Positions 24,485-39,681 of a DNA stretch of 64,000 bases are shown here, piece after piece. The stretch is from NCBI GenBank assembly GCA_018657065.1, contig JABHXU010000016.1:6333-70332 (forward strand), in the 5' to 3' direction. Origin of the DNA: an archaeon (GTDB lineage Archaea; Nanobdellota; Nanobdellia; Woesearchaeales; GW2011-AR15). A program made the position numbers and the translations under genes. The number at the start of each line of letters is the position of its first letter. The first letter of the stretch is position 1. Below the pieces are notes generated by a model. The model saw only the letters and a list, made by a program, of their open reading frames with translations, had not been told where the DNA came from and did not search any database.

Positions 24485-25810
24485 TTACTCATTTACTAAT
24501 AAACCCTTCCAAAGTTGAATAGTAGATTTAATTTTTAGTATTAATTCAGTAAATGATTTTGTATTTAATAAATGTCTAAAAATATATCCTAGTCTTAAAT
24601 AAAATTTTCTAAAAGCATAATTATGTAATTTATTTAATTCTTCTTTTGAAATCTTTGTTTGTTTTTCATTTAAAATATTTGTTTTTGGATAATTAATTAA
24701 TACATCAAAAGAAGCATACCGAGGATCTAATTCAATTGCAAAATTAATTGTCTTTAAAATATCCTTTCTTGTTTCTCCTGGGTTTCCAATCATAAAATGA
24801 CACAAGGTATCTATTCCAATTTTTTTACAATTTTCTACTGTTTGTTTAACTTGCTTAATTGTTGTTCCTTTTTTTAACAAATTAAGCATATTTTGATTTG
24901 AAGATTCAACTCCAAATTTTAATAAATGACATCCTGCTTTTTTCATTATTTTTAATAATTCAAAATCAACAGTATCAACTCTTGAATTACCTATCCATGA
25001 AATTTCTATTTTTTCTTTAATTATTTTCTCACATAATTCTTTTATGTATTTTTTATCCAATGTTAAATTTTCATCTCTAAAAAATATTTCTTTATACCCT
25101 AATTCTTTAATCTGTTTGATCTCTTTAATAACTATATTTATTGATCTTTTTCTAAATGTTTTTCCATACAAACTAGGAACTGTACAAAAAGTGCAACTAT
25201 AAGGACATCCTCTAGTAATTGTCATAGAGGTATAAGGTAAGTTTCTAGCTAAAGGATTAAAATATTTATTATCAAACTCAAGATTTCTTTTCGGAATTGG
25301 AACTTTATCTAAGTTTTTAATTTGAGCTTTCTCTTCAGAAATATGATTTTTTAAACAAACACCATTTATTTTTTTTAATTTATCATATTCATTAATATTT
25401 TTAACAACTTTTTGAATTATTTCTTCAGGTTCTCCTTTAATTGCAAAATCAATAACTCCTGATTTTAATGTGTCGTTAGGCAAAATCGTTGAATGTTGTC
25501 CAAAAGCTATAATTTTACATGAAATTTTTTGTTTAAGTTTTTTTAAAAATAAATGATCTTCTTGAAATGTATAAGTACCAATATTCACAATAATAATTTT
25601 TGGTTTTTCTTTAATTAGAATATTTATTGCTTTCTCACTAGTTCTTTTTGATAAATCGAATATTTTTGAATTAGAAATCAAAGTATTTAATTGTCTTAAA
25701 TATAAAGGTGGCCAGGAATAATTAATAAATTTTTTTTTATGCCAACACCCGTAATATGTATCTCTAATAAATCCCTCTGCATTAGGTGGAACTAAAAGAA
25801 TTATTGACAT
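24485..25810 (-). CDS. B12-binding-domain radical SAM enzyme (class B rSAM)
   Basis: An N-terminal Rossmann-like B12-binding region (KPKIIIVNIGTYTF...IIAFGQHST) is followed by the radical SAM core with the CxxxCxxC motif TRGCPYSCTFCTVP. Confidence 0.8.
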   Translation of the reverse strand: MSIILLVPPNAEGFIRDTYYGCWHKKKFINYSWPPLYLRQLNTLISNSKIFDLSKRTSEKAINILIKEKPKIIIVNIGTYTFQEDHLFLKKLKQKISCKIIAFGQHSTILPNDTLKSGVIDFAIKGEPEEIIQKVVKNINEYDKLKKINGVCLKNHISEEKAQIKNLDKVPIPKRNLEFDNKYFNPLARNLPYTSMTITRGCPYSCTFCTVPSLYGKTFRKRSINIVIKEIKQIKELGYKEIFFRDENLTLDKKYIKELCEKIIKEKIEISWIGNSRVDTVDFELLKIMKKAGCHLLKFGVESSNQNMLNLLKKGTTIKQVKQTVENCKKIGIDTLCHFMIGNPGETRKDILKTINFAIELDPRYASFDVLINYPKTNILNEKQTKISKEELNKLHNYAFRKFYLRLGYIFRHLLNTKSFTELILKIKSTIQLWKGLLVNE

Positions 25811-25888
25811 GATATTTTATATTCAAAGAATATATTTAAAGATTGCTTAAGCAAAATTTATATTAAGATTCTTTATTTAGTATATCTT

Positions 25889-28057
25889 ATGTTAATGTGG
25901 TTAAACTTAATTCTCTTAATTTTTTTAGGCTATTTATTTTCAATTTTAATTTTTAATAAATTAAATTTTAAAGAACTATTTGGATTCACTCTTTTGTTTG
26001 CAATCAGTTTATCTTCATTAGTTCTAGCAAATTTAATTTTCTTTCTTAATCTTAGCTCTAATCCTTATTTACTATTAGAAATAAATTTTATCTTAATTTC
26101 GTTGGTTTTATTTTTAATGTATAAAAAACAAATTAATATTTATATTCCCAAATTTAAAAAAACAGATTTGGTTTTTTCTTTATTTATCCTCATTATTGTT
26201 ATCTTTTCATTTTTTTATTATAATAATTCTGTTTATCATCTTTCATTAACTTCGTATTTAGAAAAAGGTGAGACAAATTGTTTTTACATGTTAGCTTTTG
26301 CACTTCAACCTTCTTTAGAAGATAAATTAGCTACAAAAACACCTTATGACATATTATCAACTCCTGGAAATTCTGTTTTTGTGTCTCCAATGCACTTATT
26401 TTTTGACTATAACACTTTCAAATATATCTATATTATATTTCAAGTCCTACTTTTTATTTTTACATATTTAATAATAAAATTTTTAACAAAAAGTTCTTTT
26501 TTTTCTTATATTACTTCACTATTTGCAATTTTTAATCCTTATATTCTTTCAATTGAAGTTCTTGATAGAAATGTTATGGCTTTAGTAGTTAGTACTATTC
26601 TATTTTTTTCTATATTCAAATATAAAAAAAAGTATTTCTTACATGGTCTTTTATACGGACTAGTGTCAGGTTTAGGATTAAGATTTCTTCCACTTGTTTT
26701 TATAATTCCAATTTTTATTTTATATTTTAAAGAAAAAACAAAAGTATGGAATTATCTGTTTTTTATTATAATTGCAGTTCTTTGTTTTGCTTACAATTTT
26801 CCTCATTTAAATTATCATGGACTTAACACATTAGGTGAATCAAAAAGCTATTTTTCTCTGGCTATTTTTGCTTTTACAAAATGGCTAAGAACTCCTTTTG
26901 TTCCATATCCTAATTTATTTTATATTTTAATTCAAATCATAAGTTATTTTGGCTATTTTATATCCTCAATAGTAATTTTGGGGTTTATTAGATTATTTAA
27001 AAAATCAAAAATAAACACTCTAATTTATTCACTAATTTTTCTAATTCCTTTTTTTACTCTTACAATTCAAAGAGATTTTATTGAAATGCCAAAAAATCGA
27101 ATAATCTTAATGAGTTTTCTTCCAATATTTATTTGGTTTTCTTTTGGATTAATTTCACTCACCCAGGCATTTAGATTTATAAGATTTAGAAAAAACATTA
27201 TTTATTTTAGTATAATATTCTTTATTTTATTTGGTTTTATTAATGTAGTTAAACAAATTAATTTTTCAGAAGAAAATGAATTTTACAATAGAAAATTTCT
27301 ATATCAAAAAGAAACTAATTCTTACTATAATTTTCAAAAACAACAATTAAGCAAAATCAAACTCTTTCCTTATTTTAAAAGACTTGGAAATAAAATCAAA
27401 TTTCCAAGAAAAAAACTTGAGGAAAAAGCAGTTATTTATAATTTAATTCAAAGAAAAAGTTTATCAAATTTTTATCAAGAAAAAAATTATGATTTTAATA
27501 TTCAAAAACCTATAGAAACTAATGATGAATATGTGAAAGTCTCAATAAATTTTGATAATCTTGTAACAAATCTAAGCAATGCTATTAAATTTTCTAGAGA
27601 AAATAATTTATTTATTGATTTTGAAAACAAAGAAGAGTTAATTGATGTATATTATAAAGAATTTAATATTTCATGGCAAAATGAAAAATTACCTTTAACC
27701 GTCTTTACTAAACACTCAGATTCAATATTTTTAAATGAAATATATTTAGATCTAAATTCATTTATTAGTTACAGCAAAGATGAATTTGGTTTTCATAAAA
27801 TAAATTCCATTAATTACAATTTTTATCCTGAATCTAAAGATTTTGCATTAAAGTCTTCAATGTCCGCTCTTCCTTCTCTTGATAATTCAAATTCTGTTAC
27901 TTTAAATATTCCTAGAAACCACAAAATAATTATTCGAAATTGGTTTATAAATGGTGCAAATGCTCAAGCCTTTAAAATTGATTCATGGGTTATTGATGTT
28001 AGTAAAGACGAACCATCTATCCAATTCTTATATAATGAACCTGAAAGTTATATTTAG
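25889..28057 (+). CDS. Large polytopic membrane protein (about 13 TM plus 260-aa extracytoplasmic C-terminal domain), GT-C-fold glycosyltransferase-like
   Basis: 722 aa. The N-terminal 460 residues are dominated by hydrophobic helices separated by short loops. The architecture (many TM helices plus a soluble C-terminal domain) is that of PMT/ArnT/AglB-type GT-C enzymes. No WWDYG motif is present. Confidence 0.45.
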   Translation: MLMWLNLILLIFLGYLFSILIFNKLNFKELFGFTLLFAISLSSLVLANLIFFLNLSSNPYLLLEINFILISLVLFLMYKKQINIYIPKFKKTDLVFSLFILIIVIFSFFYYNNSVYHLSLTSYLEKGETNCFYMLAFALQPSLEDKLATKTPYDILSTPGNSVFVSPMHLFFDYNTFKYIYIIFQVLLFIFTYLIIKFLTKSSFFSYITSLFAIFNPYILSIEVLDRNVMALVVSTILFFSIFKYKKKYFLHGLLYGLVSGLGLRFLPLVFIIPIFILYFKEKTKVWNYLFFIIIAVLCFAYNFPHLNYHGLNTLGESKSYFSLAIFAFTKWLRTPFVPYPNLFYILIQIISYFGYFISSIVILGFIRLFKKSKINTLIYSLIFLIPFFTLTIQRDFIEMPKNRIILMSFLPIFIWFSFGLISLTQAFRFIRFRKNIIYFSIIFFILFGFINVVKQINFSEENEFYNRKFLYQKETNSYYNFQKQQLSKIKLFPYFKRLGNKIKFPRKKLEEKAVIYNLIQRKSLSNFYQEKNYDFNIQKPIETNDEYVKVSINFDNLVTNLSNAIKFSRENNLFIDFENKEELIDVYYKEFNISWQNEKLPLTVFTKHSDSIFLNEIYLDLNSFISYSKDEFGFHKINSINYNFYPESKDFALKSSMSALPSLDNSNSVTLNIPRNHKIIIRNWFINGANAQAFKIDSWVIDVSKDEPSIQFLYNEPESYI

Positions 28058-28178
28058 AAAACTTAATAAACTCTCGTCTATTTAAAGAGAGTGGGGGAAA
28101 TAATGGATACAGCTCAAGCTCTTATTTATACGCATATCCCGTACCTATTTGTTCTTATTTACATTATCTATGAGATAA

Positions 28179-28379
28179 TTGCAATTAGAACATTATTTGT
28201 TAAAATTAGAAAAAAGGTGGAAAAATATGATTAGTACAACATGGTCAATTATTCTAACTCAAATACCTATAGCCATAGCAATTGTGTACGCTGTAATTGA
28301 AGTTAGGAAAACAAAAAAAGAATTATTAAGAATATTAGACAAATTAGCTGATAAGGTTAATGAAAAAAACAAAAAATGA
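28179..28379 (+). CDS. Small membrane peptide(s) upstream of the carbamoyltransferase (the true start is probably the ATG at 28227: MISTTWSIILTQIPIAIAIVYAVIEV...; a second 42-aa hydrophobic ORF lies at 28104..28232)
   Basis: Hydrophobic mini-ORFs. The stop overlaps the next gene's ATG (ATGA). Confidence 0.3.
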   Translation: MQLEHYLLKLEKRWKNMISTTWSIILTQIPIAIAIVYAVIEVRKTKKELLRILDKLADKVNEKNKK

Positions 28380-30073
28380 TTTTAGGTATATGGGATGGAC
28401 ATGAATCTAGTGCTTGTTTAGTTAATAAAGGAAAACTAATTGCTGCTGTTTCTGAGGAACGATTTACTCGAAGAAAACTTGAACCACTATTTCCTGTTAA
28501 TTCCATAAGATACTGTCTAAAAAGTCAAAATCTAAAACCTAATGAAATATATCATATTGCAATATCTACTTCTGACTGGTCTGTAACACTTTCTAGATCA
28601 TTATCTTGGTTAAAAAATGATTTTTGGTATAAAAGAAGAAGACATTTGACAAATAAACCAATAACTTGGGACCTTGATCTTCAAATATTAAATCAAACAG
28701 GTAAAATAAAATCAAACTCAATGTTTAGAAAAATCTCCAAATTTGCGATTAAAAAAATTCTATTAAACTTAGGTTTTAATATGAAAAAAACTAAAATACA
28801 TTTAGTAGATCATCATACTGCTCACGCTGCCTCAGCATATTTTACTTCTGGACTTAAAAAAGCCACTTGTGTAACTTTAGATGCTCTGGGTGACGGATAT
28901 TCTTCAACAATAAGTATTTGCGAAAATAATGAAATTAAAACAATTGCAAGAAATAAAACAAAAGATTCACTTGGACTCTTTTTTCAAGAAGTAACTTCAA
29001 TTATGGGTCTAAGAATTTTAGAAGATGAAGGAAAGGTTATGGCTCTTTCTGATTATGCATATGTTGATAACAAAAAAAATAATCCAATGCTTAATTATTT
29101 TACAGTTCATGGTACAAAGATAACTTCTAATTTTTCATTATTAAAAAGATATCAAATGCAAAAAAACCTACACTGGAGAAATAAGTCTGAAAACTTTGCT
29201 CATATGGCTCAAGATGCTCTTGAACATTTTACTACAAAACTTGTTGATAATTCAGTTAAAAAAACAGGAATAAAAGACGTTGTTTTAGCTGGAGGAATAG
29301 CTTCAAATATAAAGATGAATATGAAAATTAGAGACTTAAATAGTGTTAATAAATGTCATATTTTTCCTGCTATGGTAGATACTGGACTAAGTGCAGGTGC
29401 TGCACTTTATGTTTCAAATAAAATACTAGGAACAAAACCTTACCAATTAAAAAATGTATATCTAGGACCTGAATATTCAAATACTGAAATTAAAAAAACT
29501 CTTCAAAAATATAAAGATAAAATTAATTTTACAAAAGATAATGATTCGTCAAATCATGCTGGAGAACTTATTTCAAATAATAAAATAGTATTTAATCATC
29601 AAGGAAAAATGGAATTTGGTCCTAGAGCTCTAGGAAATCGAAGTATTCTTGCTTCAGCCTCAAGTATTGAAGTTAAAAATTTACTTAATACTAGAATTAA
29701 AAAAAGATCTTGGTTCCAACCTTTCTGTCCATCTTTGCTAGAAAAAGAAGCAACAAAATTTGTAAATGAAAAAGAATATAATAGATTCATGACAATGGGT
29801 TATATGCTAAAAAAAAGTTCTGTAGATCATGCTAGATCTACGATGAATGTTGATAAATCAATTAGACCTCAAATTCTCCACAATGAAAATCCAAGATATG
29901 AAAAATTAATTAAAAGAGTTAAAAAAGAAACTGGACAAGGAATTGTTTTAAACACAAGTTTCAATATTCATGGTGAACCTATTGTTAATTCTCCTAAAGA
30001 CGCGATCAATACAATGCTTAATTCAAAAGCTAAAAATATGTTTATTGGAGATTACTATGTTCAGCTAAAATGA
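28376..30073 (+). CDS. NodU/CmcH-family carbamoyltransferase
   Basis: The N-terminal ILGIWDGHESSACLVNKGKLIAAVSEERFTRRK matches Carbam_trans_N, and the C-terminal GPRALGNRSILA is the Carbam_trans_C signature. Confidence 0.85.
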   Translation: MILGIWDGHESSACLVNKGKLIAAVSEERFTRRKLEPLFPVNSIRYCLKSQNLKPNEIYHIAISTSDWSVTLSRSLSWLKNDFWYKRRRHLTNKPITWDLDLQILNQTGKIKSNSMFRKISKFAIKKILLNLGFNMKKTKIHLVDHHTAHAASAYFTSGLKKATCVTLDALGDGYSSTISICENNEIKTIARNKTKDSLGLFFQEVTSIMGLRILEDEGKVMALSDYAYVDNKKNNPMLNYFTVHGTKITSNFSLLKRYQMQKNLHWRNKSENFAHMAQDALEHFTTKLVDNSVKKTGIKDVVLAGGIASNIKMNMKIRDLNSVNKCHIFPAMVDTGLSAGAALYVSNKILGTKPYQLKNVYLGPEYSNTEIKKTLQKYKDKINFTKDNDSSNHAGELISNNKIVFNHQGKMEFGPRALGNRSILASASSIEVKNLLNTRIKKRSWFQPFCPSLLEKEATKFVNEKEYNRFMTMGYMLKKSSVDHARSTMNVDKSIRPQILHNENPRYEKLIKRVKKETGQGIVLNTSFNIHGEPIVNSPKDAINTMLNSKAKNMFIGDYYVQLK

Positions 30074-31815
30074 TTATAAGAATAATTCTAGGAATTATGT
30101 ACCTTTTCTTAACATTATATTTAGGATCATCTTTTTCAAAAAAATATTTTAAATTAAAAGGGCTCAAAAGTGTTGTTTCTGGTTTTATTTGTTTGAATTT
30201 TATTATTGCTTTTATTGCTTTTATGCTTGCGATTATATTTGGTTCAAACATCAATTTTCTCAATACTTTAATTTCTGTTCTAATAGTATTTTTGTCCATA
30301 CGTGAACTCCCCAAAATAAGATTTAAAAATATTCTAAAAGAAATTTTGAGAAATAAGATAATCTTAATATTTTCAATTCTAATTTTTGTTATTTATTTCT
30401 TTAATTTTTCAGGTCCTTTTTTAGGTTATTGGGACACATATATAGCAGCTCCTTCAATTACTATGGCAGGAACACAATTAAATTTTGTTGATATTAACAA
30501 TGAAACATTATATAATTATACACTTTTACAAAAAATACCTAATGATTTGATTAATAAAAAATCTTATGGAATAATTTCTAAAGATCAAAGAATAAGTAGT
30601 GGAATTTTAATGTCTGTTCCTTTTCTATTTTTTGGAATATTTGGATTTAGATTATTTTACTCTTTTTTTATTGTAAGTGGTTTTTTTATCTTATATTTCT
30701 TAGTAAAACTAATTACTAAGTCCAAAACAATTTCACTAATTGCATCTGCACTATGCTATATGAATGGATACATCTTCTCGATAAACACCTTAAATCCAAA
30801 TTTATTTGGAATGATTCTATTAACTTTGATAATCTACCTCTCTTTATTAAATGTTAAAAATTGGTTCATTATAGGTTTACTTTTTGGAATCCTAGGAAGC
30901 ATTAGAAATATTGCTATAATTTTTTCGTTTGGAATGTTTTTTTATTTAATTACAGAAGAAAAATCTATTAAAAAAATTACAATATTTACTCTAGCTACAA
31001 TATTAGGAATAATTCCAATTTTATATTGGAATAATTTTGCCTTTGGAAATATGTTCATGCACTCATCTCAATATTCTTTTTTTGAAGGTTATAGACCTGA
31101 ATTTTCTCATAACATTTTTAATCTAAAATTTATGTTTAATGGTCTCTTTAATTTTCCTTTAAATAATGAAATTATTAGAACTCCTCATTATACTTATCCA
31201 GTTTATATTTACCTATTTTTACTATTAAAAAAAACATTTGGATTATTTTTAGTATTTCCTATTTTAGGTTATTTTAATTTTTATAAAAAAAACAAAAGAA
31301 ACACTCTTTTTATTGGACTACTTTTTATTCCTCTTTTCTTATTACTCTCGTTTCAAGAAAATTGGGAAGTAGCTAAAACAAGTTTTATTTTACTTTGCTT
31401 CCCTCAAATCATAATTTTTTTATCAAAAGGTTTGGAAGAATTGAAAAAAAATTGGCTAAATCCAATATATCACACTAAACTCGGAATTTTAATTATTATA
31501 CTAGTTTTAATATCTACTTTTACAATATCTCAAAATTACGAACTAGACCAACGATGGTACGAAAGATTTCCTAAAGCCGCAGCAGATTCTTACAACAAAT
31601 ATGAAAACAAAATTGATTTAGATGAGTTTAAATTTTTTCAATCAAAAGAAACAATTAAAGAACTAAATTCTCAAAAAGAATTTCTTGATAAAACATATTT
31701 ACCTTTTTTAAAAATGCCATCAAAAAATAGAATTAATATTTCAAATGAATTAAAAAAAGAAAATATCAATGTATTTGTAATTTGGAAATACATTTATGTA
31801 GATATTAAAAACTAA
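30070..31815 (+). CDS. Polytopic membrane protein (about 12 TM), GT-C/ArnT-like, translationally coupled (ATGA) to the carbamoyltransferase
   Basis: 581 aa. The first large loop carries YWDTYIAAPSITMAGTQLNFVDINNE, a weak resemblance to GT-C first-loop acidic motifs. Confidence 0.45.
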   Translation: MIIRIILGIMYLFLTLYLGSSFSKKYFKLKGLKSVVSGFICLNFIIAFIAFMLAIIFGSNINFLNTLISVLIVFLSIRELPKIRFKNILKEILRNKIILIFSILIFVIYFFNFSGPFLGYWDTYIAAPSITMAGTQLNFVDINNETLYNYTLLQKIPNDLINKKSYGIISKDQRISSGILMSVPFLFFGIFGFRLFYSFFIVSGFFILYFLVKLITKSKTISLIASALCYMNGYIFSINTLNPNLFGMILLTLIIYLSLLNVKNWFIIGLLFGILGSIRNIAIIFSFGMFFYLITEEKSIKKITIFTLATILGIIPILYWNNFAFGNMFMHSSQYSFFEGYRPEFSHNIFNLKFMFNGLFNFPLNNEIIRTPHYTYPVYIYLFLLLKKTFGLFLVFPILGYFNFYKKNKRNTLFIGLLFIPLFLLLSFQENWEVAKTSFILLCFPQIIIFLSKGLEELKKNWLNPIYHTKLGILIIILVLISTFTISQNYELDQRWYERFPKAAADSYNKYENKIDLDEFKFFQSKETIKELNSQKEFLDKTYLPFLKMPSKNRINISNELKKENINVFVIWKYIYVDIKN

Positions 31816-31816
31816 A

Positions 31817-34573
31817 ATGAAAGCAAATAAATCAAATTTCAAACTAGATAACTTAAATCTAATTTTAAGTTTCTTATTTTTGATTGGTGGGATTTGTTTT
31901 ATAGTAATATTTTATAATAATATTTTTGACATTACACCTACAAAATACTCATGCAATTCACAATATTTTAATTCTAATAATCCAGATGAAATTTTTAATA
32001 TTAGTGAGTGTTATTTAAATAATAGTGAAATAAATCAGTCAATAGATGTTCTTAATAATGCAATTAAACACGGTGTAATTAACTTAGATATTTTTTTAAG
32101 TTTAGCAGGTCAATATTATGAACAAGTAGATTTTGATTCAGCAAAAAAAGTATATGAATATGCTAAAAAAGAATATCCTAATAGTCCTAGACTATATGAT
32201 AAAATTGGTAATTTACATAAAAGTTTAGGCTACAAAAATTCACTTGAATTTGAGAAAGCATTAGAAGCATATCAAAAAGCAATTAATTTAGAACCTAATA
32301 ATCCACAACATTATGAAAACTTAGGTATAGTTTATTCACAACTTAATGAACCTGAAAAAGCTAATTTTACATTCATTCAAGGAAAAGAAAAAAGTAGTTA
32401 TAACTACTCGTTTTATTTAGGTTGGAGTGAATATTATCGATCAATAGGGAATTATAAAAAATCTAATGAATATTTAAAAAAATTAGTTGATTCAAATCCA
32501 AATATTGCTCATTATAAAACTGAACTTGCAAGAAATTATCTTATTGAAGGAGAAATAGAACTGGCTAAAGAATATTATTCTAAAGCAATTGATAATGGTT
32601 GGTCACTTCCTACATATAATTGTCCTTATGAAGGACTAGGATTAATTTATTATATGGAAGGAAACCATGAAAAATCTGAAGAATATCTTAAAAAATCTAT
32701 AGCACTAAATCCAAAAGTTAGTGATTTAAATCGTCGTGCCTTAGCTAATCTATATGTTTCACAAAATAGAACTAATGAAGCAATATCAACTTTAAATTTA
32801 TTGATAAACTTAACTTATTTAGATTATGAAAAAAATAAAATTGAAAACTATATTAACCAATTAAAACAAGGAAAAAAACCTCACATTGATTTAGGACCTC
32901 TTGAAAAAGAAAATTTTGCGGATATAGCTCAAGAATCTAATAAAATGTTCTTTGAAGGTGAAAAAAAACTTAGAGATGGAGATTATGAACAAGCTGAAAA
33001 AAAGTATATTAACTCATTAGAATTAAATCAACTTCACGAATATAGTTCAATGCGATTATTATATTTATATTTTGCAATTTATGGTAATAAACAAAAAACA
33101 CTTAATTTATTTGAAGAATACTCTGCTACATTTAACTCTGACACAAAAAATACCTTTAAAAGTCTTATTTATCTTGATTCGAACAATATTTTAAAAGCCA
33201 AAAAACACTTAGATTTAATCTCAAATCACTCTGATTTGTCCTATTTACCATTAGGTGAATATTACTTAGAAACAGGTGAATATAAAAAAGCATATGATTG
33301 TTTTGAAAGGTCAATAGATCTCCGTCCTTTAGATGCTTTTGATTATTTTGAAATCTATAAAATAGATCGAATTTTGAGAGCAATAATCAAAGTAAAACAA
33401 TATGATTTAGCATATGATTTCATAGAAAAAATTAATTCACTTTCTGATAAATGGTTCTATCATAATAAAGCTATTGAATTAAAAATTCTCGAATCAAAAG
33501 GATATATTGCACTCAATAACAATAATTTTACTGAATCTGAAAATTATTTTAATGAATTAAAAGAAAAAAATCCTGTTATTGGATGTTCCTTTCAAGGACT
33601 AGGAGTATTATATTCTAAAACTCAAAAATACACAGAATCAACTATTAATTATATAAATGGAGCTGATCTAACACCTTATAGTTCAAGGGATCAATTTTTA
33701 GCAGCTTATTCTTGTTTTTTAACTGGAGATTATAATTGCGCAAATAAATATGTTGATAAAGCGATAAATCTCAATGATAATATTGAATATTTGGAATTAA
33801 AAGGATTTATCCTTATTATGGAAAATAAACCTCACGAAGCAAAAGTTATTTTTGATAAAATTCTAAGGGAGAAAGAATCAATAATCGCAAAATCAGGTTT
33901 AGGACATATTGCTTTAATTAACAAAAATTACACATTATCTAAACAAATATTTGAAGAATTACTAAATCAAAGTTTAAAAAACTCTTATGACAACATACAT
34001 ATTGATTATAATTATATGTATGAAACCGTGCCTTTAGGTTTAGCCTGGTCATATTCAAATCAAAACCAACATAAAGATGCTTTAGAATATTATGATATGA
34101 TTCTAAATAAAACTCCTGACCACCTTTTAGCTTTAATTAGCAAGGGAAATGCATTACTCTGGTTAGAAAGATATGATGAAGCTAAAAAAATATTTGATTA
34201 TATACTAAAATTGTATCCAAATAATGAATATGCACTAGCTGAACTAGGTTTATTAGAATATAATTTAGGAAATTTAACTGAAGCTCAAAATAAATTTAAT
34301 CAAGCTCTTGAACAAAACAGTGAAACATATACTTGTCCTTATGAAGGTTTAGGTCTTGTTTATTATAAACAAGGAAATTTAGATTTAGCAAAAGAAAATT
34401 TTGAAAAATCAATTGAAATAAATCCAGATATTGAATATAAAAAATTCAATTTGCTTGCAAAAATTTATATTGAAGAAGGAAGAAGGAAGGATGCTAAAAT
34501 TCTTTTACTAAAATCTATTGAAAACTATCCATATGATCCTGAAGCAAAACTGCTTTTAGAACAAATTAGCTAA
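31817..34573 (+). CDS. Membrane-anchored TPR-repeat protein (918 aa) with internal duplication
   Basis: An N-terminal TM helix is followed by more than 15 TPR-like repeats. The motif Y-x-C-P-Y-E-G-L-G-L-[IV]-Y occurs twice (near 32620 and 34330). Confidence 0.75.
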   Translation: MKANKSNFKLDNLNLILSFLFLIGGICFIVIFYNNIFDITPTKYSCNSQYFNSNNPDEIFNISECYLNNSEINQSIDVLNNAIKHGVINLDIFLSLAGQYYEQVDFDSAKKVYEYAKKEYPNSPRLYDKIGNLHKSLGYKNSLEFEKALEAYQKAINLEPNNPQHYENLGIVYSQLNEPEKANFTFIQGKEKSSYNYSFYLGWSEYYRSIGNYKKSNEYLKKLVDSNPNIAHYKTELARNYLIEGEIELAKEYYSKAIDNGWSLPTYNCPYEGLGLIYYMEGNHEKSEEYLKKSIALNPKVSDLNRRALANLYVSQNRTNEAISTLNLLINLTYLDYEKNKIENYINQLKQGKKPHIDLGPLEKENFADIAQESNKMFFEGEKKLRDGDYEQAEKKYINSLELNQLHEYSSMRLLYLYFAIYGNKQKTLNLFEEYSATFNSDTKNTFKSLIYLDSNNILKAKKHLDLISNHSDLSYLPLGEYYLETGEYKKAYDCFERSIDLRPLDAFDYFEIYKIDRILRAIIKVKQYDLAYDFIEKINSLSDKWFYHNKAIELKILESKGYIALNNNNFTESENYFNELKEKNPVIGCSFQGLGVLYSKTQKYTESTINYINGADLTPYSSRDQFLAAYSCFLTGDYNCANKYVDKAINLNDNIEYLELKGFILIMENKPHEAKVIFDKILREKESIIAKSGLGHIALINKNYTLSKQIFEELLNQSLKNSYDNIHIDYNYMYETVPLGLAWSYSNQNQHKDALEYYDMILNKTPDHLLALISKGNALLWLERYDEAKKIFDYILKLYPNNEYALAELGLLEYNLGNLTEAQNKFNQALEQNSETYTCPYEGLGLVYYKQGNLDLAKENFEKSIEINPDIEYKKFNLLAKIYIEEGRRKDAKILLLKSIENYPYDPEAKLLLEQIS

Positions 34574-34574
34574 A

Positions 34575-35684
34575 ATGAAAAAAAGAAAAAAAAACAAATT
34601 ATTGTTGATTGGAAGTTTAATTTTTTTAGGTCTATCAATCTTGCTATTTATATTTGGTTCATTAAATAATTTAGATGATAATGAACAAAATATTTCAATT
34701 TTAAAGAAATCTTCAATTGAATACTACAATTCAAAAAAATATTATGCTTTTGTTGAAACTAATAAAAAAATAGCTAGCTTAACACCTAATAATTCAAGTC
34801 ATCAATTTATTGCATCATATTCTTGTTTTATTATTGGAGATTATTTTTGTTCAATGGAATATGTAAATAATGCTCTTGAACTAAAAAATGATATTGCTTA
34901 TTTAGAACTCAAAGGGTTTATCTTAAACTTACAAGAAAAACCAGTTGAAGCAAAAGAAATATTTCAAGATATTTTAAAAGAAAGTAATTCAACTCTTGCA
35001 AAAATAGGTATTGGACATATTAAATTGCAAGAAAATAATTGTATACAGGCAAAGGAAATTTTTTTTGAATATAATTATCAAACAAATATAAAAACAGTAA
35101 TATTTGATAAGATTAATTCTGATTACCTTAGCCAGATGAACTCGCTTGGAATAGGTTGGTGTGATCTTGCAAATAATGACTTTGAAAATGCTCTTAAACA
35201 ATTTGATAAAATTCTTGACAATAATCCGGATCATTTACTTGGCATTATTAATAAAGCAAATACCTTAAGATGGTTAAAAAAATATAATGAAGCTAGAGAT
35301 ATTCTTTTAGATGGTCTAAAAATTTACCCAAATAGTGAATATATGTATGGTGAATTAGGTTTAATTGAACAAGAGTTAGGTAATTTAGACCAAGCAAAAA
35401 AATATTTTAATCAAGCACTTAGTAATAATAATAATACTTATTCTTGCCCTTATGAAGGACTAGGATTAATTTATTTTATGGAAGGAGATAATGAAAAAGC
35501 AAAGGAACATCTAGAAAAATCTATTGAAATAAAACAAAATTTAGATTTTGAAAAATATAATACTCTAGCTAAAATTTATATTAAAGAAGGAAAAATAACT
35601 GATGCTAAAATACTACTTTTAAAATCACTTGAAAATAATCCCGAGGGTATTGAAGCAAATGAATTATTAAAAAATATTTCTTAA
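34575..35684 (+). CDS. Membrane-anchored TPR-repeat protein (369 aa), paralogue of the C-terminal third of the upstream TPR protein
   Basis: It shares the blocks AYLELKGFIL, DNNPDHLLGIINKAN and YSCPYEGLGLIYFMEG...AKILLLKS with the 918-aa protein. Confidence 0.75.
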   Translation: MKKRKKNKLLLIGSLIFLGLSILLFIFGSLNNLDDNEQNISILKKSSIEYYNSKKYYAFVETNKKIASLTPNNSSHQFIASYSCFIIGDYFCSMEYVNNALELKNDIAYLELKGFILNLQEKPVEAKEIFQDILKESNSTLAKIGIGHIKLQENNCIQAKEIFFEYNYQTNIKTVIFDKINSDYLSQMNSLGIGWCDLANNDFENALKQFDKILDNNPDHLLGIINKANTLRWLKKYNEARDILLDGLKIYPNSEYMYGELGLIEQELGNLDQAKKYFNQALSNNNNTYSCPYEGLGLIYFMEGDNEKAKEHLEKSIEIKQNLDFEKYNTLAKIYIKEGKITDAKILLLKSLENNPEGIEANELLKNIS

Positions 35685-35879
35685 GAAGTTTTTAATTGTT
35701 TCTTCTTTAAATCATTAATTAAATCATTGCAATAAATTGTAAATGTTTTTGAAATTCTTTTATATTTTTTATTAAATAAACTTGCAAATATAATAAAAAT
35801 TTTAAACATTAATTGCATTGCTAAAATAAAAAACAGTTTTAGAAGAACTACAAACTTTGAATCTCTTTTTTTCTTATCT

Positions 35880-36665
35880 TTAATATTGCAGCATCCCATT
35901 TTTCTTAAGTAATTTATATGTTTTCAATATTTTATTTTTTTGATCATCAAATTTCAAATTATTATTCATTAAATGTAATTTAATTGTTTTATCAACAAAA
36001 TCAGATTTTCTTTTAAAAAATAACTTAATTTGCTTATCATCATGTTTAGGTTTTTCTCTGAATAAAATATTAGGTAAATAATATATCTCTCCAGCTAAAC
36101 ATTTAGGTTGAATTCCTAAGAATCTATCCATAATTTGCATATAACCCATATTAAATTTTAATTCTTTTAATTTCTTAATCTCTTCTTTTCTTTTTAAATT
36201 ATATACTGGTGTAACAAAAGAAATACCATATTTTTTGTAGAGTTTTCGAATTAATTTAACTGTTATTTCTTTTTGTTCAACCATTTCATTTGTATCCTTT
36301 GAAGATCCATCTGACATTAAAGCAATTCCATTTTCTAAACAATAAATTATACTATATGTATGCATTGCAAGTTTACATCCTAAACACCAAACAAAACCTG
36401 ATTTATGAGTTTTATATTCATTTAAAACATTGTTAATTGTAATTTTTTCAAATAAATCTTTTGAAGAAGATAATTTAAATTTAAATTTGCCTGGAAACAT
36501 ATCTTCTAACTCATTAAATCTGTTTTTTGTTCTGCCTTTGAATAAGTGACCGTATCCATTATTGTAAGTTAGTAAATGTATTTCATCATATTTTTTAGCT
36601 AAAAGATATGCTACCATTGTGGAATCAACCCCACCTGAAAACATTAATGCAATTTTTGATTTCAT
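35880..36665 (-). CDS. PP-loop superfamily ATP pyrophosphatase (QueC/ThiI/LarE/TtuA-like adenylating enzyme)
   Basis: The PP-loop SGGxDS sits in IALMFSGGVDSTMVAYLL. A central Cys cluster is WCLGCKLAMHTYSIIYC. Confidence 0.65.
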   Translation of the reverse strand: MKSKIALMFSGGVDSTMVAYLLAKKYDEIHLLTYNNGYGHLFKGRTKNRFNELEDMFPGKFKFKLSSSKDLFEKITINNVLNEYKTHKSGFVWCLGCKLAMHTYSIIYCLENGIALMSDGSSKDTNEMVEQKEITVKLIRKLYKKYGISFVTPVYNLKRKEEIKKLKELKFNMGYMQIMDRFLGIQPKCLAGEIYYLPNILFREKPKHDDKQIKLFFKRKSDFVDKTIKLHLMNNNLKFDDQKNKILKTYKLLKKNGMLQY

Positions 36666-36676
36666 TTTTATCTCAA

Positions 36677-38083
36677 TTAATTAAAAATAAGTTCTTTAAA
36701 TCCATTAAATACTGAGCGTAAAATCGGCTTATATGTTTTATGTTTAATTGTAAACCTTATTAGATTCATTAAATATTTTGGTCTTAAATAAAAAGATCTT
36801 TCTAAATCCTTTTTTAATTTCATAAGTTCTTTTTTTGATAAATTTTTATTTTCCATTGTAATATTTTTTAAAAAAATCATTTTTGACCAATTATCATCTA
36901 TTTTTAATTTATTTTTATTGGCATACATTTCCAAATCTGTGCCTGGATAAGGTGTTGCAAAAGAAACTTGTAAGAAATCTGGATCCAAATCAAGAACAAA
37001 TTTTTTTGTTTGTTTTATTGTTTCTTTTGTTTCAAGTGGCATATTTAAAATAATGAAACCTAATGTTGGTAAACCAACTTTCTTTGATAATCTAAATGCC
37101 TTTTTTATTTGATCTTTTTTTAATCCTTTTTTAGAAAAATCAAGTATTTTTTGTGATCCTGATTCTATTCCAAACTCAATTTTCATACATCCTGAATTTT
37201 TCATATGTTGAAGCATTTCTTCATTAACATTATCTACTCTTGTTAAACACATCCAAGTTATTTTTTTATTAAGAATTGAATTCATAATTTCGTCACAAAA
37301 CTCATGTACCCACTTAATATTAGTTGTAAAAGTATCATCTAAAAAAGAGAAATGTCTTGTTCCATATTTTTTATAACACTCAATCATTTCTTGAACAATA
37401 TTTTTTGAACTTCTTCTTCTAATAGTTCGTCCTGAAAAAAAAGGAACAGCACAATAATTACATTTAGCATAACAACCCCTCATAGCAATGATCGTTGTAA
37501 AATGATTTGAAACTACAGACCTATACTTTCTCATAGGTAACAAATGCCTCGCTGGAAATGGTAATAAATCTAAATCATTTATGTAGCCTTTATACTTGTT
37601 TAATTTAATTGATTTTTTTTGTCTATACGCTATCCCATTTATCTTTAAGAGAGATTTATTTTGAAGAATACTCTTAATTAAATCTGAAATTATTCCTTCA
37701 CCTTCAAATAACACAACAATATCAAAAAAATTAAACCTCTTTAAAGTGTCTTTAGGTAATGTACTGGCATGAACTCCACCAATTAAGATTTTTACTAAAG
37801 GTAATATTTTTTTTATTTCTTGAGCTAAATTATGAACTTGATTAATTGTTGGAGTAACTGCAGAAAGACCTATAATTCTAGGTTTAATTTTCTTAACATA
37901 AGTTAATATCTCATTTTTACTTAAACCTAAAGCATTTGCATCCAATATTTTTACTTTTACATTCTCTTTTTCTAAAACTGCTGCAAGGTATCCTAATCCC
38001 AGAGGAGGTCCTACTGTAATTTGAGAAATAGATTTAATTTTACTTTGAAAATTTAAATTTATAAATAATACCTCAGTTTTCAT
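36677..38083 (-). CDS. B12-binding-domain radical SAM enzyme
   Basis: The B12-binding N-domain (VKVKILDANALGLSK...IIGLSAVT) is followed by the rSAM motif MRGCYAKCNYCAVP. Its start overlaps the upstream rSAM gene by 11 nt. Confidence 0.8.
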   Translation of the reverse strand: MKTEVLFINLNFQSKIKSISQITVGPPLGLGYLAAVLEKENVKVKILDANALGLSKNEILTYVKKIKPRIIGLSAVTPTINQVHNLAQEIKKILPLVKILIGGVHASTLPKDTLKRFNFFDIVVLFEGEGIISDLIKSILQNKSLLKINGIAYRQKKSIKLNKYKGYINDLDLLPFPARHLLPMRKYRSVVSNHFTTIIAMRGCYAKCNYCAVPFFSGRTIRRRSSKNIVQEMIECYKKYGTRHFSFLDDTFTTNIKWVHEFCDEIMNSILNKKITWMCLTRVDNVNEEMLQHMKNSGCMKIEFGIESGSQKILDFSKKGLKKDQIKKAFRLSKKVGLPTLGFIILNMPLETKETIKQTKKFVLDLDPDFLQVSFATPYPGTDLEMYANKNKLKIDDNWSKMIFLKNITMENKNLSKKELMKLKKDLERSFYLRPKYLMNLIRFTIKHKTYKPILRSVFNGFKELIFN

Positions 38084-39377: not shown

Positions 39378-39414
39378 TCATGACTAAAAGAGATTTTTAT
39401 TAATATAAATTTCC

Positions 39415-39681
39415 TTAAATCCCACTTAATAAATATACAAAAAAATAATAAACATAAATTGACAAAAAAAGTAAAAATACTCCTTCTCCAAGCATTATTT
39501 TAATGTCAATAGATTCTTTTTTCTTATAATTCATTATGCAAATCACGAAAAGGGAAAAAAACATAATAAAAGCAGGATAACTAAATGATTTATTTTGAAT
39601 TTTTGGATTTAAATAAATTAAAAGTCCACTAATTAAAAACCCAATTGAAGAAAAAAAGGACCTAAAAAATCTTGTTTTCAT
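39415..39681 (-). CDS. Small membrane protein (88 aa)
   Basis: Three hydrophobic helices; weak evidence. Confidence 0.3.
   Translation of the reverse strand: MKTRFFRSFFSSIGFLISGLLIYLNPKIQNKSFSYPAFIMFFSLFVICIMNYKKKESIDIKIMLGEGVFLLFLSIYVYYFFVYLLSGI

What the first reader, a model, noticed from the sequence alone, without database searches (positions are those of the whole stretch)
28104..31815. Carbamoyltransferase translationally coupled to a GT-C-like 12-TM protein, preceded by hydrophobic mini-ORFs
Two or three successive start/stop ATGA overlaps (28376 and 30070) chain one or two small hydrophobic peptides, a NodU/CmcH carbamoyltransferase and a 581-aa polytopic membrane protein. NodU-family enzymes O-carbamoylate sugars or antibiotic scaffolds, so coupling to a membrane transferase suggests that a carbamoylated sugar is installed on an envelope component. 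Alternatively the mini-ORFs (about 42 and 50 aa, each a single TM helix) could be RiPP-like precursors or membrane chaperones for the rSAM enzymes nearby.
Basis: inference. Interest (0 to 1): 0.55.

Follow-up and report, generated by a model that had tools for sequence, protein, structure and literature searches.

The report
Archaeal carbamoyl-sugar transferase operon with microproteins
A DPANN-type archaeon carries an operon joining a sugar-type carbamoyltransferase, two membrane glycosyltransferases of the GT-C fold and a conserved pair of tiny one-helix membrane proteins, most likely a so-far undescribed variant of the lipid-linked pathways that decorate the cell envelope.

Summary
They lie in a seven-gene operon (25889-35684) that starts with a 722-aa paralogue and ends with two TPR proteins. 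The host is archaeal.

Both large membrane proteins are GT-C-fold transferases, not transporters. The mini-ORFs are real genes: they are paralogues, always in tandem in six independent loci, with saturated synonymous sites and conserved protein. They form a family of stand-alone 42-83 aa proteins with no Pfam or NCBIfam match. They show no RiPP features.

The GT-C/carbamoyltransferase pairing recurs in DPANN archaea, Omnitrophota and Myxococcota, usually with an AglJ/PpgS/ArnC-like GT2, B12-radical-SAM enzymes and a PP-loop ATPase.

Best reading: an Arn/Gtr-like pathway that tailors a dolichol-phosphate sugar and transfers it outside the cell. The microproteins would be small membrane subunits. 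Product, acceptor and microprotein role are inferred, not shown. I rate it a new variant of a known kind, with moderate interest.

The parts
25889..28057 (+). 722-aa polytopic membrane protein. It is a GT-C-fold paralogue of the 581-aa protein, with a C-terminal beta-rich extracytoplasmic domain (about residues 545-715). First gene of the operon.
   Evidence: BLASTP against the 581-aa protein gives 27% identity over 315 aa, E 5e-16. The AF2 model has pLDDT 83.6 and pTM 0.88. Foldseek PDB top hits are STT3/OST, PglB, ArnT and PIG-U at prob 0.9-1.0. It lacks the YWD loop motif; its own invariant residues are E223, D226, R227 and N228.
28103..28234 (+). mini1: a 43-aa single-pass microprotein with predicted N-out/C-in topology.
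   Evidence: Translation. It is a paralogue of mini2 (hhalign prob 97%, E 1e-10). It is conserved directly upstream of mini2 in L001, L006, L007, L024 and L025. pN is 0.18-0.53 against pS of 0.63-1.0. The exact sequence is not in the public protein collection, so it has not been gene-called.
28227..28379 (+). mini2: a 50-aa single-pass microprotein with a basic amphipathic C-terminal helix. It overlaps mini1 by 8 nt, and CT by ATGA.
   Evidence: identical to NCBI 'hypothetical protein HN789_03275 [archaeon]'. An exhaustive profile search found 21 cluster representatives, all 42-83 aa. Consensus: MDTTTAIIxTQIPIAIAILxGAYELxxxKKELxKILEKL. pN is 0.13-0.41 with pS saturated. Charge and hydrophobic-moment analysis.
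28376..30073 (+). O-carbamoyltransferase of the NodU/CmcH/TobZ type, 565 aa, soluble. It has a Kae1-like N domain and a YrdC-like C domain.
   Evidence: Pfam Carbam_trans_N 2.2e-35 and Carbam_trans_C 2.5e-53. PDB relatives are 7xb6, NovN, TobZ and GdmN at E 1e-62 to 1e-50. The alignment keeps the HHxAH, LDxxGDG and DTG(L/V)SxGAA motifs.
30070..31815 (+). 581-aa GT-C-fold membrane glycosyltransferase. It consists of an N-terminal detachable 3-TM module (about residues 1-90), the core with an invariant YWDTY loop motif (residues 120-124), and a C-terminal soluble tail of about 95 aa.
   Evidence: 70 homologues were found, many carrying PF13231 PMT_2 or PF09594 GT87. The AF2 model has pLDDT 89.9 and pTM 0.93. 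Foldseek top hits are ArnT, AglB, ALG9/12 and PglB at prob 1.0. The N-terminal module is homologous to a stand-alone bacterial ORF of about 90 aa (hhalign 95%, E 2e-8).
31817..34573 (+). 918-aa TPR protein with an N-terminal membrane anchor; the TPR part is predicted to be extracytoplasmic.
   Evidence: Pfam TPR_2 3e-56 and others. The start lies 1 nt after the GT-C stop. TPR genes flank the GT-C in L001, L004, L005 and the P0003 locus.
34575..35684 (+). 369-aa TPR protein with an N-terminal membrane anchor. Last gene of the operon.
   Evidence: Pfam TPR_2 4e-23; ORF list.
24485..25810 (-). B12-binding-type radical SAM enzyme, divergent from the operon.
   Evidence: Pfam Radical_SAM 6.6e-27. 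Best NCBIfam match is HpnJ at 211 bits, far below the 577-bit cut-off.
35681..35899 (-). 'MGCC' microprotein, 72 aa, one TM helix, N-terminus MGCCNIKDK. It overlaps the 3' end of the PP-loop gene.
   Evidence: It is conserved after the PP-loop gene in archaeal and bacterial loci. It is homologous to the N-terminal module fused to the GT-C in Omnitrophota-type proteins P0008, P0018 and P0029 (hhalign 97.8%, E 1e-12).
35880..36665 (-). PP-loop ATPase, QueC-like/DUF7411, 261 aa.
   Evidence: Pfam DUF7411 4e-07 and QueC 8e-07. A homologue is present in 41 of 83 related loci.
36677..38083 (-). B12-binding radical SAM enzyme.
   Evidence: Pfam B12-binding 6e-23 and Radical_SAM 3e-21. HpnJ/BchE-like, below the equivalog cut-offs.
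38073..39377 (-). Radical SAM enzyme of the B12-rSAM-like family.
   Evidence: Pfam Radical_SAM 1.3e-18; NCBIfam.
39672..40406 (+). CE4 polysaccharide deacetylase-family enzyme.
   Evidence: Pfam Polysacc_deac_1 1.9e-15. PDB CE4 relatives; NCBIfam.
40393..41160 (+). GT2 glycosyltransferase, 255 aa, no TM helix. It is closest to polyprenyl-phosphate sugar synthases.
   Evidence: Pfam Glycos_transf_2 2e-18. Best NCBIfam matches are AglJ 1.7e-19, PpgS 1.2e-08 and ArnC 1.2e-06. PDB relatives are P. furiosus DPMS and ArnC. A GT2 lies within 4 kb of the GT-C in 29 of 53 loci.

Best explanation
The finding is the core of an archaeal envelope-glycan modification cluster of about 17.5 kb (24485-41160, perhaps to 41981). 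The host is DPANN-like with about 25% GC.

Shown:
- A seven-gene operon encodes, in order: a GT-C paralogue, mini1, mini2, a carbamoyltransferase, a GT-C, and two TPR proteins.
- Both large membrane proteins have the GT-C glycosyltransferase fold.
- The 581-aa family has an invariant YWD motif in the first loop of its core.
- The carbamoyltransferase has both domains and the catalytic motifs of TobZ-type O-carbamoyltransferases.
- mini1 and mini2 are genuine, selected, paralogous single-pass microproteins.

Inferred mechanism:
1. On the cytoplasmic face, the AglJ/PpgS/ArnC-like GT2 loads a sugar, probably a HexNAc, onto dolichyl phosphate.
2. The CE4 enzyme de-N-acetylates it, as ArnD deformylates Und-P-Ara4FN.
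3. The carbamoyltransferase uses carbamoyl phosphate plus ATP, via carbamoyl-AMP, to carbamoylate a hydroxyl or the freed amine.
4. The B12-radical-SAM enzymes and the PP-loop ATPase add further tailoring.
5. The lipid-linked sugar is flipped. Sister loci encode MprF-type flippase-like proteins for this step.
6. The GT-C enzymes transfer the sugar to an extracytoplasmic acceptor (surface protein, glycan or lipid). The membrane-anchored external TPR proteins probably hold the acceptor.

The microprotein pair is predicted N-out/C-in, with a conserved T-Q-x-P motif in the helix and a basic amphipathic cytoplasmic tail. It most likely forms a heterodimeric small membrane subunit that organises or tethers the soluble cytoplasmic enzymes (CT, GT2, deacetylase) or the flippase at the membrane. 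Known parallels are DPM2/DPM3 for DPM1, Alg14 for Alg13 and Ost4 in OST.
For: Gene chain and overlaps.

Archaeal host: class I LysRS, FttA/aCPSF1 and HTH_10. The nearest loci are labelled archaeon, Woesearchaeota or Nanobdellota.

GT-C assignment:
- PMT_2 is matched by 19 of 38 family members (best 5e-10) and GT87 by 6 of 38.
- The AF2 models are high-confidence.
- Foldseek top hits are exclusively GT-C enzymes at prob 0.9-1.0; transporters score 0.06 or less.
- Y120, W121, D122 and Y124 are invariant.

CT.

Conserved neighbourhood: of 53 loci with at least 4 kb on each side, CT lies within 4 kb in 38, GT2 in 29, a radical SAM gene in 26 and the PP-loop gene in 19.

GT2 relatives are all polyprenyl-phosphate sugar synthases: AglJ, PpgS, ArnC and DPMS.

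A flippase-like LPG_synthase_TM gene sits beside the mini pair, the deacetylase or CT in L006, L009, L024 and L025.

Microproteins:
- Tandem pair in 6 independent loci.
- Paralogy.
- pN well below a saturated pS.
- 21 stand-alone family representatives.
- Topology from charge bias.
- Found only in loci that also have CT: 6 of 6. Absent from the two close archaeal loci without CT.

Other small membrane modules of this cluster physically join the GT-C in some genomes. The 3-TM module and the MGCC module occur both free and fused. Small subunits around this GT-C are therefore a real theme.

The three-component paradigm (polyprenyl-P-sugar synthase, flippase, GT-C) is described in PMC11127046.
Against: - There is no biochemical or expression evidence.
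- The window's 581-aa protein itself misses Pfam PMT_2.
- A profile of the family finds no PDB sequence.
- Foldseek E-values are only about 2e-3 and TM-scores about 0.38.
- No flippase candidate was found in the 64-kb window.
- The GT2 and deacetylase lie 8-9 kb from the CT, beyond opposite-strand genes.
- GT2, rSAM and PP-loop matches are far below the equivalog cut-offs, so sugar identity and tailoring chemistry are unknown.
- The nearest solved relatives of the CT tailor soluble antibiotics.
- The 722-aa paralogue lacks an invariant acidic residue in its first loop and may not be catalytic.
- The mini pair is coupled to CT only here. It is absent from three archaeal loci that have CT (L009, L047, L071), and no fusion or known homologue indicates its partner.
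Confidence: 0.55

Rival explanations
1. The mini1/mini2 pair is part of the flipping step. It would be an accessory subunit of the MprF-type (LPG_synthase_TM) flippase-like protein, or itself a minimal scramblase for the lipid-linked sugar. That would put it in the role of GtrA or ArnE/ArnF rather than a tether for soluble enzymes.
For: In L025 the pair follows the LPG_synthase_TM gene on the same strand. In L024 it overlaps the end of that gene. In L006 the flippase-like gene is two genes away. Conserved polar residues (T, Q/H, P) sit inside the helix. Three-component systems normally include a small membrane flippase.
Against: Each protein has only one TM helix. Known small flippases (GtrA, ArnE/F, SMR type) have four (established knowledge). 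The window and L001 have the pair but no LPG_synthase_TM gene. L009, L047 and L071 have that gene but no pair.
Confidence: 0.18
2. The cluster makes a soluble or secreted specialised metabolite, such as an aminoglycoside-like or other carbamoylated small molecule tailored by radical SAM enzymes. On this reading the GT-C proteins are only neighbours or resistance/export-related genes.
For: The closest solved CT relatives (TobZ, NovN, GdmN) tailor antibiotics. The region has at least five radical SAM genes and a PP-loop ATPase.
Against: CT-GT-C linkage is conserved across archaea and several bacterial phyla (38 of 53 loci). It comes with a polyprenyl-P-sugar-synthase-like GT2, a CE4 deacetylase, flippase-like genes and external TPR proteins. 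No scaffold-forming genes such as PKS, NRPS or cyclitol synthase were seen in the window. DPANN genomes are small and poor in biosynthetic capacity (general knowledge).
Confidence: 0.12
3. The mini-ORFs are RiPP-type precursor peptides modified by the neighbouring radical SAM and PP-loop enzymes.
For: Small size, tandem paralogues, and several radical SAM enzymes plus a PP-loop ATPase nearby.
Against: Conservation is highest across the hydrophobic helix and the amphipathic tail. There is no leader/core split or cleavage motif. Cys counts are 0-2, mostly 0. The N-terminus has only 3-8 residues before the helix. Their direct neighbours are CT, GT2, a flippase-like gene or a deacetylase; a radical SAM gene is adjacent only in L007. 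No RiPP recognition element or protease was noticed in the window cluster.
Confidence: 0.04
4. The mini-ORFs are chance ORFs in an AT-rich intergenic spacer.
For: At 25% GC, short hydrophobic ORFs arise easily. mini1 is not gene-called in public collections.
Against: The same tandem pair occurs in six loci whose DNA is saturated at synonymous sites while the protein is kept; for example mini2 against L001 shows 35 of 47 residues identical with pS 0.87. There are 21 family representatives at E below 1e-3 among 1.84 billion proteins. Shine-Dalgarno-like motifs precede both ORFs.
Confidence: 0.02

Closest known systems
Arn pathway for lipid A aminoarabinose (ArnC GT2, ArnD CE4-type deformylase, ArnE/ArnF small flippase subunits, ArnT GT-C)
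   Same: The same set of part types is present. The GT2 resembles ArnC. A CE4-family deacylase is present. A GT-C has ArnT as its best structural match. Small membrane proteins are encoded beside them. The logic of tailoring a polyprenyl-phosphate monosaccharide in the cytoplasm before external transfer is the same.
   Different: The host is archaeal. A TobZ/NodU carbamoyltransferase, B12-radical-SAM enzymes and a PP-loop ATPase are added. The small proteins have one TM helix, not four, and are not homologous to ArnE/F. There are two GT-C paralogues and external TPR partners. The acceptor is unknown. No gene reaches an Arn equivalog score.
Three-component extracytoplasmic glycosylation systems (GtrB/GtrA/Gtr*; mycobacterial PpgS-Rv3779 GalN addition; C. 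youngae ORF15/14/12, PMC11127046)
   Same: A polyprenyl-P-sugar synthase plus a GT-C, with a flippase-like gene in sister loci. GT2-GT-C adjacency is the commonest arrangement in the bacterial relatives.
   Different: The flippase-like protein, where present, is MprF-type (PF03706) rather than GtrA, SMR or MATE type, and is absent from this window. Extensive cytoplasmic tailoring enzymes are added. The GT-C family is only remotely related to PMT_2/GT87.
TobZ / NodU / CmcH / NovN O-carbamoyltransferases
   Same: Two-domain architecture and conserved catalytic motifs; E 1e-55 to 1e-62 against solved members.
   Different: It scores far below the NodU equivalog cut-off: 103 bits against 1000. It is genetically locked to a membrane GT-C rather than to antibiotic or Nod-factor genes. 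The substrate is unknown.
Small membrane subunits of lipid-linked glycosylation enzymes (DPM2/DPM3 with DPM1, Alg14 with Alg13, Ost4 in OST, PgaD with PgaC)
   Same: Very small membrane proteins are encoded with, and presumed to act on, enzymes that handle polyprenyl-linked sugars. A cytoplasmic amphipathic tail is suited to docking a soluble enzyme.
   Different: There is no sequence similarity. Here the proteins form a tandem paralogous pair of 43 and 50 aa. The partner is unidentified. This resemblance rests on established knowledge and was not tested.
HpnI/HpnK/HpnJ hopanoid side-chain pathway (GT2, deacetylase, B12-radical-SAM acting on a lipid-linked glucosamine)
   Same: The same enzyme triad logic. 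HpnJ is the best NCBIfam match for all three nearby radical SAM proteins.
   Different: Scores are 147-224 bits against a 577-bit cut-off. The deacetylase here is CE4 rather than YdjC type (from memory). Archaea lack hopanoids.
TMTC / PMT_2-TPR protein O-mannosyltransferases
   Same: A GT-C of the PMT_2 clan working with TPR repeats on the non-cytoplasmic side.
   Different: The TPR repeats are separate membrane-anchored proteins, not fused. Protein acceptors are not shown.

Membership tests
GT-C fold glycosyltransferases | Polytopic membrane fold shared by ArnT, PglB/STT3, PMT and ALG enzymes | tested here: met
   AF2 models have pLDDT 89.9 and 83.6. The top Foldseek PDB hits are all GT-C enzymes at prob 0.9-1.0. 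TM-scores are only about 0.3-0.4, so the relationship is distant.
GT-C fold glycosyltransferases | Conserved acidic residue in the first extracytoplasmic loop of the core | tested here: met
   For the 581-aa family, D122 in the YWDTY motif is invariant in 38 sequences and follows the core's first TM helix, H96-112. For the 722-aa paralogue it is not met: there is no invariant D/E in that loop.
GT-C fold glycosyltransferases | Uses a polyprenyl-phosphate-linked sugar donor | not testable with these tools
   Only contextual evidence: an AglJ/PpgS/ArnC-like GT2 in the cluster.
Pfam PMT_2 (PF13231; GT39/GT83-like) | Score above the Pfam gathering threshold | tested here: not met
   The window protein has no hit at E of 0.01 or better. 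By contrast, 19 of 38 homologues match (best 5.3e-10), so the family sits at the edge of the PMT_2 clan.
NodU/CmcH/TobZ carbamoyltransferases | Carbam_trans_N (Kae1-like) plus Carbam_trans_C (YrdC-like) domains above threshold | tested here: met
   123 bits (cut-off 24) and 180 bits (cut-off 27).
NodU/CmcH/TobZ carbamoyltransferases | Metal-binding and catalytic motifs (HxxxH, D, D) retained | tested here: met
   VDHHTAHAAS, LDALGDG and VDTGLSAGAA align with the corresponding TobZ and NovN segments. Residue roles are recalled from the TobZ literature.
NodU/CmcH/TobZ carbamoyltransferases | NodU equivalog (NF041651) score | tested here: not met
   102.9 bits against a cut-off of 1000. It is a family member but not NodU itself.
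Three-component extracytoplasmic glycosylation system | Polyprenyl-phosphate sugar synthase (GT2) in the locus | tested here: inconclusive
   The GT2 at 40393-41160 is closest to AglJ, PpgS, ArnC and DPMS, but far below cut-offs: 70 bits against 325.
Three-component extracytoplasmic glycosylation system | Dedicated flippase gene | tested here: not met
   No LPG_synthase_TM, GtrA, SMR or MATE-like gene was recognised in the window cluster. One is present in sister loci L006, L009, L024, L025, L047 and L071.
Three-component extracytoplasmic glycosylation system | GT-C transferase | tested here: met
RiPP precursor peptides | Leader/core organisation with a modifiable core (Cys/Ser/Thr-rich or hypervariable) and a cleavage site | tested here: not met
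   Alignment of 22 family members shows one conserved TM helix and an amphipathic basic tail, no bipartite pattern, and 0-2 Cys, mostly 0.
Small flippase subunits (GtrA, ArnE/ArnF, SMR type) | About 110-130 aa with four TM helices | tested here: not met
   mini1 and mini2 are 43 and 50 aa with one TM helix each. There is no Pfam or NCBIfam match.

The most novel reading that the evidence does not exclude
mini1/mini2, the MGCC microprotein and the detachable 3-TM module may be dedicated small subunits of a previously undescribed GT-C-centred membrane machine. That machine would build a carbamoylated, radical-SAM-tailored lipid-linked sugar and put it on the cell surface. The cluster is shared by horizontal transfer between DPANN archaea, Omnitrophota and Myxococcota, lineages rich in ultra-small, host-attached or predatory cells. 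The surface mark could therefore matter for cell-cell attachment. A more radical sub-reading is that the one-helix pair is itself a minimal lipid-linked-sugar scramblase.
Probability: 0.2. Interest if true: 0.75.

Novelty: new variant of a known kind. Interest (0 to 1): 0.5.

Why it matters
DPANN archaea depend on contact with host cells, yet almost nothing is known about how they build or decorate their surface.

This cluster gives a concrete, testable pathway. It comprises a distant new GT-C family, an O-carbamoyltransferase that probably works on a lipid-linked sugar, and at least three families of unannotated membrane microproteins. Two of those families are shown by free-versus-fused gene forms to belong with the GT-C.

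The same module in Omnitrophota and Myxococcota offers more tractable organisms for testing. It also points to cross-domain transfer of envelope chemistry.

The two microproteins are also a clean example of conserved genes that standard annotation misses: mini1 and the MGCC ORF are absent from the public protein collection.

Tried and rejected
The true starts are 28103 and 28227.
- Pfam and NCBIfam give nothing for mini1, mini2, the MGCC protein, the bacterial 3-TM ORF, or either large membrane protein of the window. A weak Fer4_NDSU1 hit to mini2 (E 0.009, below cut-off) is dismissed as noise.
- I first thought the bacterial 3-TM ORF of about 90 aa that overlaps the CT start was a functional analogue of the mini pair, that is, a CT tether. 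hhalign shows no homology to the minis (prob below 1%). It is instead the detached form of the N-terminal module of the archaeal GT-C, so that argument was dropped.
- The RiPP-precursor idea was rejected.
- A profile search of the GT-C family against PDB sequences found nothing significant.
- The tRNA scan was empty.
- Four literature searches for this gene combination found no description. Only the general three-component paradigm was retrieved.
- The sigma-70 promoter and terminator scan was not run, because the host is archaeal.

Full report
**1. What is in the sequence**

The window has about 25% GC. It is archaeal: it encodes a class I lysyl-tRNA synthetase, the archaeal termination factor FttA/aCPSF1 and an HTH_10 regulator. 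The mini2 protein is identical to NCBI 'hypothetical protein HN789_03275 [archaeon]'. The nearest related loci are labelled archaeon, Woesearchaeota or Nanobdellota.

The + strand between 25889 and 35684 carries seven genes with almost no spacing:

| Gene | Coordinates | Junction with the previous gene |
|---|---|---|
| 722-aa membrane protein | 25889-28057 | first gene |
| mini1, 43 aa | 28103-28234 | 45-nt gap |
| mini2, 50 aa | 28227-28379 | 8-nt overlap (ATGATTAG) |
| carbamoyltransferase, 565 aa | 28376-30073 | ATGA overlap |
| 581-aa membrane protein | 30070-31815 | ATGA overlap |
| TPR protein, 918 aa | 31817-34573 | 1-nt gap |
| TPR protein, 369 aa | 34575-35684 | 1-nt gap |

Both mini-ORFs have Shine-Dalgarno-like tracts upstream. 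The carbamoyltransferase and GT-C starts have none, which fits translational coupling (inference).

**2. The enzymes**

*Carbamoyltransferase.* It has both Pfam domains well above threshold. It matches the solved TobZ, NovN and GdmN enzymes and a further carbamoyltransferase at E 1e-50 to 1e-62. The HHxAH, GDG and DTG motifs are retained. It is not a NodU equivalog.

*581-aa protein.*
- It has no Pfam hit itself, but it has 70 homologues, of which many carry PMT_2 or GT87. Among 38 aligned members, 19 match PMT_2 and 6 match GT87.
- The alignment shows an invariant YWDTY motif (residues 120-124) directly after the first helix of the conserved core, along with other invariant polar residues.
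- An AlphaFold model built from this alignment is confident (pLDDT 89.9, pTM 0.93).
- Its best PDB matches by Foldseek are all GT-C enzymes (ArnT, AglB, ALG9, ALG12, PglB) at probability 1.0, but with low TM-scores of about 0.38. Transporters appear only at probability 0.03 or less.

*722-aa protein.*
- It is a paralogue of the 581-aa protein: 27% identity over 315 residues, E 5e-16.
- Its model (pLDDT 83.6) again hits STT3, PglB, ArnT and PIG-U.
- It lacks the YWD motif, has its own invariant E223/D226/R227/N228, and carries a beta-rich C-terminal domain. It may be catalytically divergent.

**3. The mini-ORFs are real genes**

- phmmer and a family HMM run against six-frame ORFs of 83 related loci find the pair in L001/L002 (two contigs carrying the same locus), L006, L007, L024 and L025. 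It is always mini1 followed immediately by mini2.
- The two are paralogues (hhalign 97%, E 1e-10).
- Between loci, synonymous sites are saturated (pS 0.6-1.0) while non-synonymous divergence is low (pN 0.13-0.53). For example, mini2 of the window against L001 keeps 35 of 47 residues at pS 0.87.
- An exhaustive profile search of 1.84 billion representative proteins returns 21 members at E below 1e-3. All are 42-83 aa and stand-alone.
- The family consensus is MDTTTAIIxTQIPIAIAILxGAYELxxxKKELxKILEKL followed by a basic tail.
- Across the family the N-terminus is 3-8 residues with net charge zero or negative. There is one hydrophobic helix. The C-terminal 18-45 residues are net +2 to +6 and strongly amphipathic. 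This predicts N-out/C-in topology.
- There is no leader/core pattern and almost no cysteine, so the RiPP-precursor alternative is not supported.
- mini1 is not present in the public protein collection, meaning gene callers miss it.

**4. Context across genomes**

Of 53 non-redundant loci with at least 4 kb on each side of the GT-C, the following lie within 4 kb:

| Gene type | Loci (of 53) |
|---|---|
| Carbamoyltransferase | 38 (directly adjacent on the same strand in 11) |
| GT2 | 29 |
| Radical SAM enzyme | 26 |
| QueC-like PP-loop ATPase | 19 |

The loci come from DPANN-type archaea, Omnitrophota, Myxococcota and other uncultured bacteria.

In the window the same set is present:
- B12-type radical SAM genes at 24485-25810, 36677-38083 and 38073-39377.
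- A PP-loop gene at 35880-36665.
- A CE4 deacetylase at 39672-40406.
- A 255-aa GT2 at 40393-41160.

The best matches of the GT2 are all polyprenyl-phosphate sugar synthases: AglJ, PpgS and ArnC in NCBIfam, and P. furiosus DPMS and ArnC in the PDB. All scores are far below the equivalog cut-offs.

Sister archaeal loci additionally encode MprF-type flippase-like proteins (PF03706) next to these genes. None was found in the window.

**5. Neighbours of the mini pair**

| Locus | Arrangement |
|---|---|
| Window | Translationally coupled to the carbamoyltransferase |
| L001 | 160 nt upstream of the carbamoyltransferase |
| L007 | SPASM radical SAM, mini1, mini2, GT2 |
| L006 | Between the GT2 and the CE4 gene, on the opposite strand, two genes from the flippase-like gene and the carbamoyltransferase |
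| L024, L025 | Directly behind the flippase-like gene |

The pair is thus a cluster component rather than a fixed partner of the carbamoyltransferase. Even so, every locus with the pair has a carbamoyltransferase. Two close archaeal loci without the enzyme (L005 and the P0003 locus) also lack the pair. Three loci with the enzyme lack the pair.

**6. Other small membrane modules**

Two further observations show that small membrane pieces really do belong to this GT-C.

(a) *A detachable 3-TM module.* Bacterial loci carry a 3-TM ORF of about 90 aa between the GT-C and the carbamoyltransferase, and its stop overlaps the enzyme's start. It is homologous to residues 3-68 of the window's 581-aa protein: hhalign 95%, E 2e-8, against 0.1% for a reversed control. 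The N-terminal extension of the archaeal GT-C is therefore a module that can also exist as a separate gene.

(b) *The MGCC microprotein.* A 72-aa ORF at 35681-35899 (minus strand) begins MGCCNIKDK and overlaps the end of the PP-loop gene. It is conserved after the PP-loop gene in both archaeal and bacterial loci. It is homologous to the N-terminal module fused to the GT-C in Omnitrophota-type proteins (hhalign 97.8%, E 1e-12).

No such fusion exists for mini1 or mini2.

**7. Most likely mechanism (inferred)**

The part list matches the known logic of Arn-type and Gtr-type 'three-component' systems (PMC11127046). In these, a GT2 makes a polyprenyl-phosphate sugar, the sugar is tailored and flipped, and a GT-C transfers it outside the membrane.

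Here the tailoring would include de-N-acetylation (CE4), carbamoylation (CT, using carbamoyl phosphate and ATP) and radical-SAM/PP-loop chemistry of unknown kind. The two membrane-anchored TPR proteins, predicted to face outward, probably present the acceptor.

The microprotein pair has a cytoplasmic basic amphipathic tail. I consider it most likely a heterodimeric small subunit that holds soluble enzymes or the flippase at the membrane. The main alternative is a direct role in flipping.

Sugar identity, acceptor and microprotein partner are all untested.

**8. Comparison and novelty**

The system works like Arn, Gtr or PpgS-Rv3779 pathways, but it is not a member of any of them:
- No component reaches an equivalog score.
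- The GT-C family lies at the margin of PMT_2.
- The carbamoyltransferase, radical SAM and PP-loop additions, and the three microprotein or module families, are not described in the papers I could search.

I rate it a new variant of a known kind, with moderate interest (0.5). It is a well-defined uncharacterised surface-modification cluster in DPANN archaea, shared across domains, with previously unannotated microproteins. It has no experimental handle yet.

Noticed in passing
window 35681-35899 (-); also L001 11906-12094 (-), L004 3328-3555 (-), L005 12706-12936 (-), L006 12265-12525 (-), L029, L030, L049, L050, L057, L062: A conserved 'MGCC' microprotein of 62-90 aa with one TM helix and an N-terminus of MGCCN(I/K). 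It always lies just after, and overlaps, the QueC-like PP-loop ATPase gene, in both archaea and bacteria. In Omnitrophota-type proteins (P0008, P0018, P0029) the same module is fused to the N-terminus of the GT-C (hhalign 97.8%). It has no Pfam match and is not gene-called in the window genome. The invariant N-terminal Gly-Cys-Cys is unexplained; acylation, metal binding or sulfur chemistry with the PP-loop enzyme are possibilities.
   Followed up: partly
L003 11719-11988, L010 11422-11712, L012 11513-11782, L017 4526-4843, L023, L027, L031, L068; window 30070-30340: A stand-alone 3-TM ORF of about 90 aa (motifs FLPGYL and LIPIxxFSxAxLLHT) lies between the GT-C and the carbamoyltransferase in bacteria, with its stop overlapping the CT start. 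It is homologous to the N-terminal extension of the archaeal 581-aa GT-C. The GT-C family thus exists with a 3-TM N-module, an MGCC N-module, or neither.
   Followed up: yes
window 25889-28057: The 722-aa GT-C paralogue lacks the invariant YWD loop motif of the 581-aa family and has no invariant acidic residue in that loop. It has its own invariant E223/D226/R227/N228 and a conserved beta-rich C-terminal domain (RNWFING, DSW and NEPESY motifs). It may be a non-catalytic or differently catalytic partner.
   Followed up: partly
window 59800-61203 (-) and 61232-62578 (-): Two more B12-binding radical SAM genes lie about 20 kb from the cluster. That makes at least five radical SAM genes in 64 kb of what is probably a small DPANN genome.
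   Followed up: no
L024 3152-5110 (-): A 651-aa fusion of a Glyco_tran_28_C-like domain with a radical SAM-SPASM enzyme. It lies directly upstream of the flippase-like gene and the mini pair.
   Followed up: no
window 41127-41981 (-) and 39415-39681 (-): A 284-aa protein ending GSDHYPLV, with a weak endonuclease/exonuclease/phosphatase-family match (1.3e-07), sits at the cluster edge. An 88-aa hydrophobic ORF follows the last radical SAM gene; no homologue of it was found in the related loci.
   Followed up: partly
window 30070-31815 against NCBI records: NCBI annotates the 581-aa and 722-aa genes in shortened forms (489 aa; 646 and 589 aa). That cuts off the conserved N-terminal 3-TM module. 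The longer starts are supported by conservation in P0002-P0004.
   Followed up: partly
window 1-64000: No tRNA or tmRNA gene was detected in 64 kb.
   Followed up: no
L004-L083 record titles: Several of the loci closest to this archaeal window are labelled 'uncultured Methanosarcinales', and several Myxococcota-like loci are labelled 'Rickettsiales' or 'Enterobacterales'. These automatic MAG labels look unreliable.
   Followed up: no
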